A stretch of 64,000 nucleotides of DNA, taken from contig NC_092347.1 in the NCBI RefSeq assembly GCF_963676685.1, forward strand, positions 90,644,001 to 90,708,000, in the 5' to 3' direction. Position 1 is the stretch's first letter, and the number at the start of each line of letters is the position of its first letter. Origin of the DNA: Mytilus edulis (taxonomy: Eukaryota). Shown piece after piece: positions 9,001 to 15,000 of this stretch. Position numbers: made by a program.

Positions 9001-12000
9001 ATGAAATTATTAACGTGTTGTTTCAATTTGTTTTTCGGTCTTTCTAAAATGAATAATAAATATTTCAAAACATTATGTGTATCAGATCAGAATTTTTGTC
9101 CGCACTATATACCTTAAACAAATTATATGCAACAAATCAAACACATGTACCATGCTTATTCATACTTATGGTAATTTCACTGATAACACAGTGTGGGAAC
9201 GGAACTGTACGGTTTTCTAATAATTTGGTCATTCGGGAGACTGTCAAGCGGTGCTCCGACATTTGCAAAATAACAAGTTGCTTGATGGAAACTTTGACGA
9301 ACTCTTATGTTACTATATAACGTTTCTGCTTCAAAATTTGATAGCTAAAACATTCTTTATGTAAATATGAACCTTAGAATGGTGGAGCTCCGTGTAAAAC
9401 GATCAAAATTGTCACACAACAGCGATCAAAATGTCAAATAAACATCGAAAAATCAATGTTTGCTACCTGAATTTTCACATGTACCTTTTCTGATATATAT
9501 TCTTACCTGTCTGAAAGTTTCAAAGCCATTGTCCCAGTAGAAATCCAAATATATTCATTTTCTCCATGTCGGGTATTTTTATTGACTGTACAATCGCTTG
9601 CAAGTTTACTGTAATATCACTCGGAGCCTTCCTGTACAATCGCTTGGAGCTTTTCTTTTCATCGTTTTGCCAACTAGACTACCCCGAAAGGAGGGTAACA
9701 TAGTTACTTTACCTTGTTATGACTTCACGGTACGGCTAGCAAGCAAGCTAGTCTAAGGTATTACTTTTTCCTACACACTCATTGCATTTTGCTGTAGTTT
9801 CTAGTGGCATATGACTAATTATAACTCTTAAGTGGATAATGCTTACTACTATCTCTTCTGCCACATTCATGATCAGTTTATGTATTCCATGATACTTTTG
9901 TCATATAAATATTTATTAAAACTACTGCAATCCAATACAATATATGTCTGGCATGATTTTTCTCTCCTTTTTCTGTTACGATTTAATAACAGTTAGTTAT
10001 TTGGTATTGTTATCATTTTTTTAAAACCTAAATTGCACACTCAAAAATGTTAATGATGTTTGAAGCTTTTATTTGAATGGATGCAGCCTGCATTAGCGGT
10101 TGAAACCCCATTTTCCCGATTTTTTAAAAATTTTTGTACGTTTCAGGATGTTCCGTGGTTTGGATCCCCTTTTGCAGAAAGACGGGATCCGCACATGGTC
10201 TAATATCGTCAATGATAGTATGCTGATCCGATCATTCATCTGATTTTGTTAGTTTGGTCTTCTGCTGTGCTAATTTTGGGGAGAAATGAGAGCACACAGA
10301 CATTTTTAACCCTGCCAAATTCTTTATATACCTGTTTCAAGTCAAGAGCTCGTAGTTCAGTTGTTGTCGTTGGTTCATGTCTGTCATATATGTTTTTCGT
10401 AAATTGTTTTATTATGAATTAGGCCGTCAGTCATAGTAAATTCGAAACGCATTGATTCTTATTTTTCATGTCGGGACCTTTTATAGCCGACTATAATTGC
10501 TTAAATCCATTTATTTTTTTAACTTTGACAATCATATCACATCTCCTTATTTTTATATTGATGATATAAATGTGGTTTAATAAACCAACTGTTTCGTTCA
10601 TTTGTCGGATGCTATAGTTGGGAATATTGAAAAGTTCCTGAATCGTGACATTGATATAAAAAAAATCATGTTGAAGGATTTTGTGTTTTCTCTGTCTTTC
10701 AGATATTAAGTCCTCTCCCATCCTTGATAAAATTTTATTTTACTAGAGCTCTTTCTACCAGTAGCTTTAGCTTGTAATAAACAGACATCTCATTTGAAAT
10801 TATACCAGATCTTCTTATTTTAATATCATGTTTATTGACATATACGTGTCTTTTCTTGGATCAGTGGTAAGCTACCACCATTCCACATTCGAATTCCTTG
10901 ATACAATATCCCGGTCCTTTGGTGAAAAATTCTTTGTTGTATTGTTCAAATATGTATTTATTAATTTTTTTCAAATTGCTGGTAAATAATATAATAAGTA
11001 AAATTCAAAATATGCTAATTACCCTTCAAGAGAATCTAGTCACCTTTTCGGTATATATAAATATTTATTTTGTACGAGGATTATTTTCATTTTTATTTTA
11101 GATTAGATTCTTAACATATTTTTTACTGTCCTTTTCATTTTGTCTTGTATACTTATTCAGTGGTTGTTTGTTTATATGTGTTACATATTTGTTTTTCGTT
11201 CATTTTTTGTACATAAATAAGCCGTTAGTTTTCTAGTTTTACATTGTTATTTCGGGGCATTTAATTTATAACTGACATGCTAAGAAATCCTCGCTAAAAA
11301 TTCCGGTCGACCTCCTACGGCAGTCATTAGTAGCTAAACATTTGATTTCATTCAAGAAATTAATTTATGACCTTCATGTACGTGTCGCTTAGAACACGAC
11401 CATATACCGAATGGTCAATATTAATCATCCATGTAATTTGCTCTATGGGGTGTTTGCAGAATTTCAACGGAGGCAATTTCTTGGCATGCTATGCGGTATG
11501 GCATTTGATCATTGTTGACGACTGTACGGTGACCTATAGCTGCTCTTTGGCAATCATAACACACCTTCTTTATTATATCTATTGCATACATTTTGTTTTT
11601 GTCTCTGATATAGTCACCTTGAAAGAGTTCCTTGATAGAATCTTAATCTTTTCAATGATTGAAAACAAAATGTCAGCCATGTAGTTGAGAGGAAAAATAA
11701 AGAACTGAAGAAGGTCAATGGCCGAAACGTCTTGAAAAATTGGTTTATTTATACAATTATAAAAAGTATGTTCCCTATTGGAAGTTTAAAAACAAGAATC
11801 TTAATTGTCAAAATGACTGGTTATATGCTTATTTTCACTTCAAATACCATATCTATAATACTAAAATTACGAGGTCCAATTTGTCAGCCGTCATCACGTA
11901 AAAACGATGAATCAAAGAATTCAACTTTATATATAACTAATATAGTACAATGGTGTTGATTAAAAATTACACCACTCTAGGCCCATTTGTTTTCCACGTA

Positions 12001-15000
12001 ATTAATATTGCCAATAATTAAGAAGTTCCGGATCGAATCCGACACCGATACCAATAGTATATTCACCTGTTACCTGTTACCTTATCTGTGCGTTCCGCAT
12101 CTGACAGGCGCACCACCAAACAGTGTATTTAGAATTTTGCTGTATACTGTTGAGTAAAAACTACTTCATTCCAGGCCCTTTTGTTTTCCAAATTATTAAT
12201 ATTACTAATAATTGAAAGGTTCCAGGTCGACGGGTTCAAACAGAAAGATTTTGAAAGCAGAGAAAACTGTGCACCTTATAATACATGTTATAATCGGCAT
12301 GATTTTATCAGATGACAATACCAATACTAAAATAAGTCATACTCATAGTTATATACCAGTCACGGACCTGCGATATCACGGGTGTGTTCTAGTATTATAT
12401 AATAGGACAGCAAGAAACAACCAATACAACGCATTTGCAATGTATTTAATAAATTTTGCCAAGCAATTCTACAGGAAAGCTCCAAGTGATTGTACAAGGA
12501 GGCTCCGAGTGATATTACAGTAAACTTGCAAGCGATTGTACAGTCAATAAAAAATATTCGACATGGAGAAAATGAATATATTTGGATTTCTACTGGGACA
12601 ATGGCTTTGAAACTTTCAGACAGGTAAGAATATATATCAGAAAAGGTACATGTGAAAATTCAGGTAGCAAACATTGATTTTTCGATGGTTATTTGACATT
12701 TTTGATCGCTGTTGTGTGACAATTTTGATCGTTTTACACGGAGCTCCACCATTCTAAGGAAAACGTTTTGATGCATATATCTTTCTTATTATTTTATTTG
12801 TTCATATTTACATAAAGAATGTTTTAGCTATCAAATTTTGAAGCAGAAACGTTATATAGTAACATAAGAGTTCGTCAAAGTTTCCATCAAGCAACTTGTT
12901 ATTTTGCAAATGTCGGAGCACCGCTTGGCAGTCTCCCGAATGACCAAATTATTAGAAAACCGTACAGTTCCGTTGCCACACTGTGGATAAGCCCTTTCCT
13001 ATATTATTGATAAAAGTCATTCTGCATTTACAATCATATCTTGGTGTACCCATTCAGCTTAACTTTCTTATAGGTGTATCTAAGACTTATAATTTAGTAA
13101 ATAGCATACATGAATTTTGCTGACACAACGTTACACAAATCATATTGAGAGCAAGAGTAACATTAAAGTTTTAACATATGATAAATCGTTCGATTAACTT
13201 TAATCTTCATCATAATATTGAGCGGTACAGAATTCGAATGTTGTCAAGTGTGTCTTCAGAGTTGATCAATATTCTTGGAAATCTATCAAATGTAATAAAC
13301 GTTTAAAAACTTAAACAACAACTGGAACTGATTAAAACAATATCATACACGACTACGGAATCATATAATTATATCAAAGCATAATTCAGATAATTTGTTA
13401 TTCGCACATTGTTGTTCAATCCTTTGTTTAAAAAAAAAAGTTTTGTGTTAATATCTATCTTCAGATATCTAGTATCATATATATGTGTAAATAACAAAGA
13501 GGACAAATAATGTGTTGATAAACTCTGATTATTCCAAATTCATGTATTTAGCTTAAATGTTTAATGTTATATTTGTAATACTCATCGGATTTTGTAAAAT
13601 ATGTTCACGTCTTTTCGATTATATTCATGTGCTATGGTAAAGAAAATTAATCACCGCCTTCATTAGTTAGATTTCATTTTGTTCAACGTAATCTGTACGA
13701 TGGTTTACGTTTGTAGTTAATATTCAAAACAAACCGGTGATTGATCTGTTTCTTTGTGCCATTGTATATCTTTTTTCCAGTAGACAGTGGTCATTCCCAT
13801 ATAAACCAACTTCTCTAATTTTATTATATTACCTTTATGGAAATGAAGTAGAAAGAGGAACTTTTCAAGATGAATGTTAAATTAGCATGATCCTTAAATT
13901 TTACATGTGATTGTGACTGGAGCAAAGCGTTTCAAAATCTGATATAATCAAGAGGCTTAATCTATTCTATTCCCACCATAGTTGTTACCGTTGGAAGACG
14001 TGTTTTCAATGGAGTGTTCATTTTTATAGAAACCAACTGTGCGTCTTATTATCACACTCTTCCACCTGATCATAAAGTAAAAGATATCATCAATAATCTA
14101 GTTCAAATAATCTTGCAATGTAAATTATCTTTACGACACATCTGGTTTTGATCCATTTTTGATTTCATGCGATTTTTTCAATTCATCATGAGTCTCTGAT
14201 TGATCTAGGAGATTCGGATAATCGCTTTAATTAACAATCTATATAAGAACTTGGTTGACGATAACGAAACAACTCCGTTTCTTGCTTTTCGTGTTGAGCA
14301 ATCTTTTCTAGTTACCAGGAAAATAGTCTGTACTGTTTTTATAATTCTATTGGAGAGAGTATTGTAAATTCATACGTAATGACGGGGTTTTTATTAATGT
14401 GAATAATGAGACTAGGTGAGTATCGCAATGATAAGAACTACTATGTCCGGTACATATATCTGTGTGGCGATCTTTTTTCAAAAATCGCAATAGTTTATCT
14501 CGCATTTTTGTCAAATCTTCAAAAATTATAATATAAAATTCGCTCAATAGTTTCTGAATTTACAGTAGTTTAAATGGTCATTCTAAGTTTTCTTGTTGCA
14601 ATCAATTGCCATTTCCCATCCCCTTTTCTTCGACTTCACCGAATGATTAAATAAAAGAACAAAGTGTTTTCGTGGAAATGAGCAACACAAACTTTGTTCG
14701 TACAATCAGAAAGCTAGTTCAGATATTGTTGTAAATTTTAAATAAACCATGTGTCTCACGTGTATATCAATCAACTTCAAACTGGTTAAGGGTATTACCT
14801 CACAATCAGTCTACAAAAGCCCTGACATTGTACAGTTAAGTCTTGATGGTACATACTTTTAAAATAACATTATCGGCAAAATTGTGATATGATATCCTGT
14901 CTTTTAAATAGCGGTCTTCATGACCAACCATTATGCCTGAACAAATCTTTGTACATGTTAAAACATTTAGTAAAGGTGTTTAGTTATTTGGGGTAACGTT

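What the first reader, a model, noticed from the sequence alone, without database searches (positions are those of the whole stretch)
9182..12990. Transib/RAG-like transposon derivative with perfect RSS heptamer ends and very long TIRs
Seen: both ends begin CACAGTG, the V(D)J RSS heptamer. They are flanked by a 5-bp TSD (GATAA) confirmed by an empty paralogous site. The inverted arms are ~470 and ~510 bp, nearly identical apart from an ~45-bp indel. I find no ACAAAAACC nonamer at 12 or 23 bp. Known: CAC ends plus a 5-bp TSD are hallmarks of Transib/RAG-like transposons, and RAG-like transposons have been reported in molluscs. Inference: a RAG1-related transposase was active after the gene cluster duplicated, so an autonomous partner may persist in this genome.
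Basis: partly seen in the sequence, partly recalled or inferred. Interest (0 to 1): 0.68.

Follow-up and report, generated by a model that had tools for sequence, protein, structure and literature searches.

The report
Long-armed Transib-like transposon in mussel
A 3.8-kb non-coding jumping-gene relic in a mussel genome has the end sequence and five-base insertion footprint typical of the transposon family that gave rise to the vertebrate antibody-gene recombinase, with unusually long mirrored ends; it is real but fairly ordinary.

Summary
Window 9187-12985 is a 3,799-bp element. Both ends read CACAGTG, and both are flanked by GATAA (9182-9186 and 12986-12990). Two paralogous sites (30183-30187 and 44641-44645) are empty and carry one copy of the 5-mer, read there as GAAAA. 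The inverted arms are 470 and 513 bp. They match at 461 of 470 aligned bases and differ by one 41-bp and two 1-bp gaps. There is no nonamer.

The element is non-coding. None of its 82 ORFs reaches a Pfam cut-off, and none resembles a transposase. The host is a mytilid mussel. The insertion postdates an inverted segmental duplication. Three unnamed public peptides match the outer arm up to the terminus, so the family has other copies.

The CAC ends and 5-bp TSD fit mobilisation in trans by a Transib-type, RAG1-related transposase. This rests on one TSD and on end signatures only. The ends do not match the mollusc RAG-like TIR consensus (6-7 of 17). The target is AT-rich. No partner transposase could be looked for. 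A CMC/Chapaev-type element remains a live rival. Interest is modest.

The parts
9182..9186 (.). Left copy of the target-site duplication, GATAA.
   Evidence: There is a single copy (GAAAA) at the empty paralogous sites.
9187..9193 (+). Left terminal heptamer CACAGTG.
9187..9656 (+). Left terminal inverted repeat arm, 470 bp.
   Evidence: 461 of 470 bases identical to the right arm.
9400..9448 (+). Subterminal direct repeat inside the left arm. The period is 23 bp with 2.1 copies, and CGATCAAAAT occurs at arm positions 214 and 237. It is mirrored in the right arm.
9586..9656 (+). Three 23-bp units at the inner edge of the left arm. CTGTACAATCGCTTG occurs at arm positions 400 and 446, with a degenerate unit at 423. 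The CTGTAC core also occurs at arm position 19. The mirror array in the right arm is 12459-12543.
   Evidence: CTGTAC occurs 3 times in 470 nt, against about 0.24 expected from the window-wide frequency.
9657..12472 (.). Non-coding interior, about 2.8 kb and AT-rich. The longest stop-to-stop frame is 106 aa. It holds pieces of other interspersed repeats of the window (11154-11280 and 11489-11578).
12473..12985 (-). Right terminal inverted repeat arm, 513 bp.
12760..12800 (-). A 41-bp segment present only in the right arm; this is the arm-length difference. Its boundary is ambiguous by 1 nt.
12979..12985 (-). Right terminal heptamer, CACAGTG on the minus strand.
12986..12990 (.). Right copy of the target-site duplication, GATAA.
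30183..30187 (-). Empty paralogous target site, GAAAA on the minus strand.
44641..44645 (-). Second empty paralogous target site, GAAAA on the minus strand. It is the sister of the 30-kb copy.

Best explanation
This is a non-autonomous, long-TIR class II (cut-and-paste) DNA transposon of 3,799 bp. It codes for nothing and must have been moved in trans.

The most likely mover is a Transib-superfamily DDE transposase, meaning Transib proper or a RAG-like relative. By analogy with HzTransib and RAG, such an enzyme would bind the CACAGTG-led ends and nick at the heptamer border. It would release the element by forming hairpins on the flanking DNA. It would then join the two 3'-OH ends to target phosphates staggered by 5 bp, and repair of that stagger gives the GATAA duplication.

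The element landed in intergenic DNA of a mussel glycine/tyrosine-rich protein gene cluster, after the surrounding roughly 10-kb segment had been duplicated in inverted orientation.

Shown:
- the insertion, its exact ends and the 5-bp duplication;
- the empty sites;
- the lack of coding capacity;
- the timing relative to the duplication;
- the existence of other copies.

Inferred:
- the identity of the transposase;
- the hairpin chemistry;
- a role for the 23-bp-periodic subterminal repeats as extra binding sites;
- an origin of the 0.5-kb arms by inverted copying of one subterminal region.
For: - Ends and TSD.
- Empty sites: two, overlapping the flanks by exactly 5 nt.
- Arms: 98.1% identical.
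- No coding capacity: 0 of 82 element ORFs of at least 30 aa reach a Pfam cut-off. Ten of the 82 have only weak matches (10.5-14.3 bits) to unrelated families. The longest frame is 106 aa.
- Timing: K2P is 0.019 between the arms, 0.076-0.089 between the filled copy's flanks and its paralogues, and 0.03 between the two empty paralogues. The paralogy runs from 8637-19000 to 30624-26216 and 45087-39132, inverted.
- Other copies: three unnamed ENA peptides (55, 55 and 82 aa) are 86-90% identical to the frame across arm bases 9189-9335. Similarity ends at ...PTL, which is the element terminus. After that point P0019 and the window's two ends all read differently.
- Literature, passages read:
  - Transib has 5-bp TSDs and a CACAATG heptamer, and it has non-autonomous members (PMC1131882).
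  - RAGL, Transib and RAG share CAC ends and 5-bp TSDs, and RAGL elements occur in oysters and a mussel (PMC7204232).
Against: - No transposase or remnant lies in the element or elsewhere in the window, so membership rests on end signatures alone.
- The TSD length comes from one insertion. A 4-bp TSD plus a one-base coincidence would give the same picture; I estimate that coincidence at about 0.3 per base from the window's base composition.
- There is no nonamer-like block.
- The target is AT-rich (GATAA/GAAAA), whereas Transib and RAG are reported to prefer GC-rich targets.
- The arms are 470-513 bp. The Transib consensus TIR is 38 bp, TransibSU has 13 bp and Nozomi 37 bp.
- A survey of mollusc genomes found one Transib ORF among 14,275 DDE/D ORFs, while CMC elements were present in all genomes (PMC10294476).
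- A 2026 preprint reports that TSD length and TIR start vary within Transib and should not override transposase homology.
Confidence: 0.6

Rival explanations
1. It is a non-autonomous element of the CMC group (CACTA/EnSpm-Mirage-Chapaev). Its true TSD would be 3-4 bp and would look like 5 bp because the next one or two bases match by chance. It would be mobilised by a CMC transposase.
For: - The CMCT lineages share 5'-CA..TG-3' termini and give 2-5 bp TSDs (PMC12730594).
- CMC elements were found in all mollusc genomes surveyed, against one Transib ORF (PMC10294476).
- Subterminal direct repeats like those in the arms are, from my recall, typical of CACTA elements.
- Only one TSD is available here.
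Against: - The duplicated flank is exactly 5 nt and the TIR symmetry begins exactly at CAC on both sides. A 4-bp reading would need an unpaired extra base at one end.
- CMC TSDs are reported as 2-4 bp.
- The heptamer matches Transib at 6 of 7 and the RSS at 7 of 7.
Confidence: 0.2
2. It is specifically a derivative of a RAG-like (RAG1L-RAG2L) transposon of the kind described in oysters and a mussel. This is a sub-case of the best explanation.
For: - RAGL transposons with CAC ends and invariably 5-bp TSDs, and some non-autonomous derivatives, are reported in bivalves. A RAG1L-RAG2L pair is reported in the mussel Modiolus philippinarum (PMC7204232).
- RAGL-A TIRs have a heptamer close to the RSS consensus (PMC10462144).
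Against: - The ends match the protostome RAGL consensus CACTWMCAAACKTYKBB at 6 of 17 (left) and 7 of 17 (right) positions. They lack the conserved AAA at positions 8-10 that the RAG1L C-terminal tail is proposed to bind.
- There is no A-rich TR2 and no AT-rich nonamer-like block as in RAGL-A.
- There is no RAG1L or RAG2L remnant.
Confidence: 0.1
3. It belongs to another superfamily that can give 5-bp TSDs, such as hAT5 or Ginger2, or to a lineage not yet described.
For: [quoted passage not shown]
- Ginger2 gives 4- or 5-bp TSDs (PMC10045372).
- hAT is among the richest superfamilies in bivalves.
Against: - The third terminal base of hAT elements is reported as always G (PMC1131882, Figure S7 legend). 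Here it is C.
- Integrase-type elements such as Ginger end TG..CA by my recall. This element ends CA..TG.
Confidence: 0.08
4. It is not a mobile element. It would be a local inverted duplication (palindrome) that arose in place.
For: The window is full of inverted and tandem segmental duplications.
Against: - The boundaries are exact, with a 5-bp duplication and clean empty sites in both paralogues.
- The arms have no other copy in the window.
- Related arm sequences exist elsewhere and lose similarity exactly at the terminus.
Confidence: 0.02

Closest known systems
Non-autonomous Transib elements (TransibN families of insects and sea urchin; Kapitonov & Jurka 2005, PMC1131882)
   Same: The ends begin CAC, with a heptamer one base from CACAATG. 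The TSD is 5 bp. The element has no transposase and depends on one supplied in trans.
   Different: The arms are 470-513 bp against a 38-bp consensus TIR. There is no A-rich nonamer-like block about 23 bp in. The target is AT-rich rather than GC-rich. The host is a bivalve, where Transib ORFs are nearly absent from surveys. No partner is known.
Protostome RAG-like (RAGL-B) transposons and their non-autonomous derivatives (Martin et al. 2020, PMC7204232)
   Same: Mollusc hosts, CAC termini and 5-bp TSDs. Pairs of TIRs without genes are also reported.
   Different: The TIR consensus is matched at only 6-7 of 17 positions, and the AAA at positions 8-10 is missing. There are no RAG1L or RAG2L remnants. 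Reported TIR similarity between species is confined to about 13-15 bp, whereas here the arms are 0.5 kb.
CMC group (CACTA/EnSpm, Mirage, Chapaev)
   Same: CA..TG termini. Subterminal repeats (a feature I recall, not one I looked up). The group is common in molluscs.
   Different: Reported TSDs are 2-4 bp. Here 5 nt are duplicated.
V(D)J recombination signal sequence
   Same: A perfect CACAGTG heptamer at the cleavage border.
   Different: There is no nonamer at 12 or 23 bp. It does not adjoin antigen-receptor-type gene segments. It is the end of a mobile element in a mussel.
KolobokP composite-like transposons of bivalves (Kojima & Bao 2022, PMC9587614)
   Same: They are rich in bivalves, including Mytilus. 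Their terminal repeats are about 450 bp, and some families give 4-5 bp TSDs.
   Different: KolobokP repeats are direct, each has its own short TIRs, and the termini are RR..YY. Here the repeats are inverted, the ends are CA..TG, and the arms have no inner end matching the outer end.

Membership tests
Transib superfamily | Transposase homologous to the RAG1 core. For a non-autonomous element, this means an autonomous partner with the same termini. | not testable with these tools
   The element has no transposase remnant (0 of 82 ORFs), and none appears in the other large ORFs of the window (0 of 34).
Transib superfamily | 5-bp target-site duplication. | tested here: met
   GATAA lies on both sides, and two empty sites overlap the flanks by 5 nt. 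This is one insertion only.
Transib superfamily | Termini beginning 5'-CAC, with a CACAATG-like heptamer. | tested here: met
   CACAGTG at both ends, 6 of 7 to the consensus.
Transib superfamily | A-rich nonamer-like block about 23 bp (or 12 bp) from the heptamer. It is conserved in the 21 insect and urchin families described, and is not universal in the wider RAG/Transib group. | tested here: not met
   The best match is 5 of 9, a score reached by 45% of random window positions.
Transib superfamily | Preference for GC-rich targets. | tested here: not met
   The target is GATAA/GAAAA, with 1 of 5 bases G or C. One site cannot establish a preference.
RAG-like (RAGL) transposons | Convergent RAG1L and RAG2L genes between the TIRs. 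| tested here: not met
   No ORF in the element matches RAG1 or RAG2 Pfam families at E up to 1. A non-autonomous derivative would not be expected to carry them.
RAG-like (RAGL) transposons | TIR following the protostome consensus CACTWMCAAACKTYKBB, with AAA at positions 8-10. | tested here: not met
   6 of 17 (left) and 7 of 17 (right) positions match, and positions 8-10 read TGG.
RAG-like (RAGL) transposons | 5-bp TSD. | tested here: met
CMC (CACTA/Mirage/Chapaev) | TSD of 2-4 bp. | tested here: inconclusive
   Five nucleotides are duplicated. A 4-bp TSD plus a one-base coincidence cannot be excluded from a single copy.
CMC (CACTA/Mirage/Chapaev) | 5'-CA..TG-3' termini. | tested here: met
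   The feature is taken from PMC12730594.
hAT5 | hAT-type terminus, with G as the third base. | tested here: not met
   The third base is C. The feature is taken from the PMC1131882 Figure S7 legend.
KolobokP | Long terminal direct repeats with their own short TIRs, and RR..YY termini. | tested here: not met
   The repeats are inverted and the termini are CA..TG. The features are taken from PMC9587614.
V(D)J recombination signal sequence | Heptamer plus nonamer at a 12- or 23-bp spacing. | tested here: not met
   The heptamer is perfect, but the nonamer match is at most 4 of 9, which is chance level.

The most novel reading that the evidence does not exclude
Mytilid mussels carry a recently active and so far undescribed Transib-type (RAG1-related) transposase lineage. 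It would recognise a perfect RSS-type heptamer without any nonamer or A-rich TR2 region, insert into AT-rich DNA, and mobilise elements with 0.5-kb inverted arms carrying 23-bp-periodic subterminal repeats. That would be a new end-recognition mode within the RAG/Transib group, in a phylum where plain Transib is almost unrecorded.
Probability: 0.25. Interest if true: 0.55.

Novelty: new member of a known kind. Interest (0 to 1): 0.35.

Why it matters
If the Transib reading is right, this family marks fairly recent activity of a RAG1-related transposase in a mussel. Bivalves are a group where RAG-like elements are known but plain Transib transposases are almost unrecorded: one ORF among 14,275 DDE/D ORFs (PMC10294476). 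The family's perfect RSS heptamer, missing nonamer and very long arms would add a data point on how end recognition varies in the RAG/Transib group.

It would also give a simple handle, the terminal 150 bp, for finding the autonomous partner and for presence/absence markers in mussel populations.

If the element proves to be a CMC element, it is an ordinary repeat.

Tried and rejected
- Coding remnants. I scanned 82 stop-to-stop ORFs of at least 30 aa overlapping the element against Pfam at E up to 1. None reached a cut-off, and 10 gave weak hits to unrelated families. Of the window's 38 ORFs of at least 90 aa, I sent the 34 that lie outside the element; none matched at E up to 0.01. The other 4 were covered.
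- RNA features. Nothing inside the element reached an Rfam gathering score; the only hit there was a 27.7-bit snoRNA-like match with E 0.3. No tRNA was found.
- More copies in the window. There are none. A scan for CAC...GTG pairs with TIRs of at least 12 of 14 and TSDs of 3-6 nt returned this element. The other pairs lie in segmental duplications or in a palindrome-rich patch, and I do not take them for transposons.
- Composite of two short elements. The arms have no inner end that mirrors the outer end, so this was rejected.
- Protein search with the 99-aa frame at 12363-12659. There were no candidates.
- P0016 and P0017 are weak, repetitive matches to unrelated long proteins and were ignored.
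- Literature. A search for 'Transib' with 'long terminal inverted repeats' found 3 papers, 2 of them listed; judged from their titles and abstract starts, neither describes such elements. Searches for Transib with bivalve, Mytilus or Crassostrea turned up no description of Transib non-autonomous families in bivalves in the held library. PMC11071193 held nothing useful. PMC3093488 (Yuan & Wessler 2011) is not held, so P-superfamily (CANRG, 7-8 bp), MULE (8-10 bp) and Polinton (6 bp, AG..CT) features are quoted from recall only. All three are disfavoured by the 5-nt duplication.
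Full report
**What is there.** Window 9187-12985 is a sharply bounded 3,799-bp insertion. Its left end reads CACAGTGTGGGAACGG... and the reverse complement of its right end reads CACAGTGTGGCAACGG.... The terminal 26-mer occurs nowhere else in the 64-kb window, against 0 expected in 100 shuffles. GATAA lies directly outside both ends, at 9182-9186 and 12986-12990. At this base composition a 5-nt match has a chance of about 0.002.

The flanks have two paralogues on the opposite strand. 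The left flank aligns up to 30183 and the right flank from 30187. The same holds at 44641-44645. Each paralogue therefore carries one copy of the 5-mer, read there as GAAAA, and nothing between. This is a classical filled-site/empty-site pair and fixes the duplication at 5 nt.

**The arms.** They span 9187-9656 (470 bp) and 12473-12985 (513 bp). Of the 470 aligned bases, 461 are identical. The nine differences are 7 transitions and 2 transversions. The gaps are 41 bp, 1 bp and 1 bp.

**Anatomy.**
- The arms are not complete small elements, because the inner edges do not mirror the outer ends.
- They contain short direct repeats with a 23-bp period. CGATCAAAAT occurs at arm positions 214 and 237.
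- Three further units lie at arm positions 400, 423 and 446, and their CTGTAC core also occurs at position 19, close to the terminus.
- CTGTAC occurs 3 times in 470 nt, against about 0.24 expected from its window-wide frequency.
- That these repeats are protein-binding sites is my inference.

**The interior.** The 2.8-kb interior (9657-12472) is AT-rich. Its longest stop-to-stop frame is 106 aa. It gives no Pfam match at or above a cut-off in any of 82 frames of at least 30 aa. Ten frames have only 10.5-14.3-bit hits to unrelated families, and none is a transposase or RAG family. There is no tRNA and no Rfam family above threshold. Parts of the interior (11154-11280 and 11489-11578) resemble an interspersed repeat seen at three other places in the window. 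The element is therefore non-autonomous.

**Host and context.**
- The window carries seven copies of a large exon-like frame encoding a secreted glycine/tyrosine/asparagine-rich protein.
- One uninterrupted frame (37915-38706) found 12 proteins. Eleven are named as Mytilus species proteins, and the best is 74% identical, from M. coruscus. The host is therefore a mytilid mussel.
- The segment 8637-19000 is an inverted paralogue of 30624-26216 and 45087-39132.
- The insertion lies between gene copies.

**Timing.** K2P distances are 0.076-0.089 between the filled copy's flanks and either paralogue. They are about 0.03 between the two empty paralogues and 0.019 between the two arms.
- The two empty sites are sisters and count as one witness.
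- The insertion happened on the filled lineage after the inverted duplication.
- If the arms were identical on arrival, the insertion falls in roughly the last quarter of the time since that duplication. This last step is an inference.
- Precise excision from the ancestor of the empty copies is unlikely, because neither shows a footprint.

**Other copies.** No eukaryotic DNA collection was open, so I used a frame across the outer arm (9180-9344, minus strand) as a probe of the protein sets.
- The representative search returned 3 hits at E up to 0.001. One was a 55-aa peptide at 92% identity. The other two are weak, repetitive matches that I disregard.
- The 90%-cluster search returned three unnamed ENA peptides (P0015, P0018, P0019) at 86-90% identity, from contigs of 734, 3,075 and 3,073 bp.
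- These frames are surely gene-caller artefacts, but they report DNA copies.
- In all three, similarity runs to ...SSVPTL, whose last codon ends two bases short of the element terminus. P0015 and P0018 end there. P0019 continues with sequence unrelated to either flank of the window copy.
- This supports the terminus as called and shows that the family sits at other sites.
- It says nothing about their TSDs or arm lengths.
- I did not try to find out where those records came from.

**Classification.** The published hallmarks of Transib are a 5-bp TSD, a CACAATG-like heptamer and a transposase related to the RAG1 core. At the time the 5-bp TSD was described as unique among eukaryotic DNA transposons (PMC1131882, passages). 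RAG-like transposons of oysters, a pearl oyster and a ribbon worm share CAC ends and invariably 5-bp TSDs (PMC7204232, passages).

Features that fit:
- the TSD is 5 bp;
- the heptamer matches Transib at 6 of 7 and the RSS at 7 of 7.

Features that do not fit:
- There is no nonamer-like block. The best scores are 4 of 9 and 5 of 9, which 66% and 45% of random window positions also reach.
- The target is not GC-rich.
- The TIR is far longer than the 38-bp consensus, the 13-bp TransibSU TIR (PMC4411706) or the 37-bp Nozomi TIR.
- Against the protostome RAGL consensus CACTWMCAAACKTYKBB the ends score 6 and 7 of 17. They lack the AAA at positions 8-10. They also lack the A-rich TR2 of RAGL-A (PMC10462144).

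**Rivals.**
- CMC elements share CA..TG ends and give 2-4 bp TSDs. Kojima groups them with Transib as a clade giving 2-5 bp TSDs (PMC12730594; the preprint). They occur in all mollusc genomes surveyed, whereas only one Transib ORF was found among 14,275 DDE/D ORFs (PMC10294476).
- With one insertion, a 4-bp TSD plus a chance match of the next base cannot be excluded, although it would leave one end with an unpaired base. I give this rival 0.2.
- hAT5 families make 5-bp TSDs, but hAT ends have G at position 3 and this element has C.
- Ginger2 makes 4-5 bp TSDs (PMC10045372), but by my recall it ends TG..CA.
- KolobokP is bivalve-rich and has terminal repeats of about 450 bp. Its repeats are direct and its termini RR..YY (PMC9587614).
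- A purely local palindrome is excluded by the TSD, the empty sites and the outside copies.

**Mechanism, as far as it can be stated.** The element supplies only ends. A transposase made elsewhere in the genome bound them, excised the element and inserted it with a 5-bp stagger. If that enzyme is of the Transib/RAG type, excision proceeds by nicking at the heptamer border and forming a hairpin on the flanking DNA, as shown for HzTransib (cited). That step is inferred by analogy and was not tested here. The long arms most likely arose when one subterminal region was copied in inverted orientation onto the other end, and the 41-bp difference arose later. This is also an inference.

**What stayed unchecked.**
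- A genome-wide census of copies and TSDs.
- The search for an autonomous partner.
- Presence/absence among individuals.

The N run at 62366-62465 was left as it is.

**Verdict.** This is a real, cleanly delimited, fairly young non-autonomous DNA transposon with Transib-type ends and footprint and unusually long inverted arms, in a mussel. It is most likely a new member of a known kind. Membership in Transib is probable (about 0.6) but unproven, and 'RAG-like' in the strict sense is unlikely (about 0.1). Interest is modest, at 0.35.

Noticed in passing
window 8905-8943 (+): A minimal type III hammerhead ribozyme-like motif with intact CUGAUGA and CGAAAC core boxes. It scores 28.8 bits, below Rfam's gathering score of 48.5, with E 0.0004 in a 501-nt search. 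It sits in a stretch of about 80 bp that the two paralogous copies lack, some 250 bp left of the transposon. It may be a fragment of a retrozyme or Penelope-like repeat; that idea comes from recall and was not tested.
   Followed up: partly
window 2419-3126(-), 19153-19941(-), 25023-25772(+), 31515-32249(+), 37915-38706(+), 47056-47790(+), 54696-55526(+): Seven copies of a large open frame. In the two copies translated it encodes a signal-peptide-bearing protein rich in glycine, tyrosine and asparagine, with GSYGIGGLNGF-type repeats. One copy matches unnamed or uncharacterised Mytilus proteins, the best at 74%. None of the seven has a Pfam domain. The copies form a tandem and inverted gene cluster.
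   Followed up: partly
window 43835-44599: The 44-kb paralogue carries an extra stretch of about 765 bp that the other two copies lack, about 40 bp from the empty target site. It contains at least two nested MITE-like units. One has 24-nt inverted ends at 44388-44411 and 44575-44598, next to a long poly-T. The other has 14-nt inverted ends at 43831-43844 and 44375-44388. They are unrelated to the CACAGTG element.
   Followed up: partly
window 34600-35050 (also 21738-21753): A patch dense in near-palindromic AATTTCAC[G/A]TGAAATT motifs. CACGTGAAATT with up to 1 mismatch occurs 13 times in the window, against 2.3 expected, and 9 of the 13 lie in this patch. Its nature is unknown; it could be a repeat or a binding-site cluster.
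   Followed up: no
window 11154-11280 and 11489-11578; relatives at 49017-49267, 41302-41473, 27657-27828: The transposon's interior contains two pieces of an interspersed repeat of about 250 bp that is present at three other places in the window. About 208 bp of other sequence separates the two pieces. Whether this repeat entered before or after the transposon moved is unknown.
   Followed up: no
window 62366-62465: A run of 100 N, which is an assembly gap or a masked stretch. It was left untouched.
   Followed up: no
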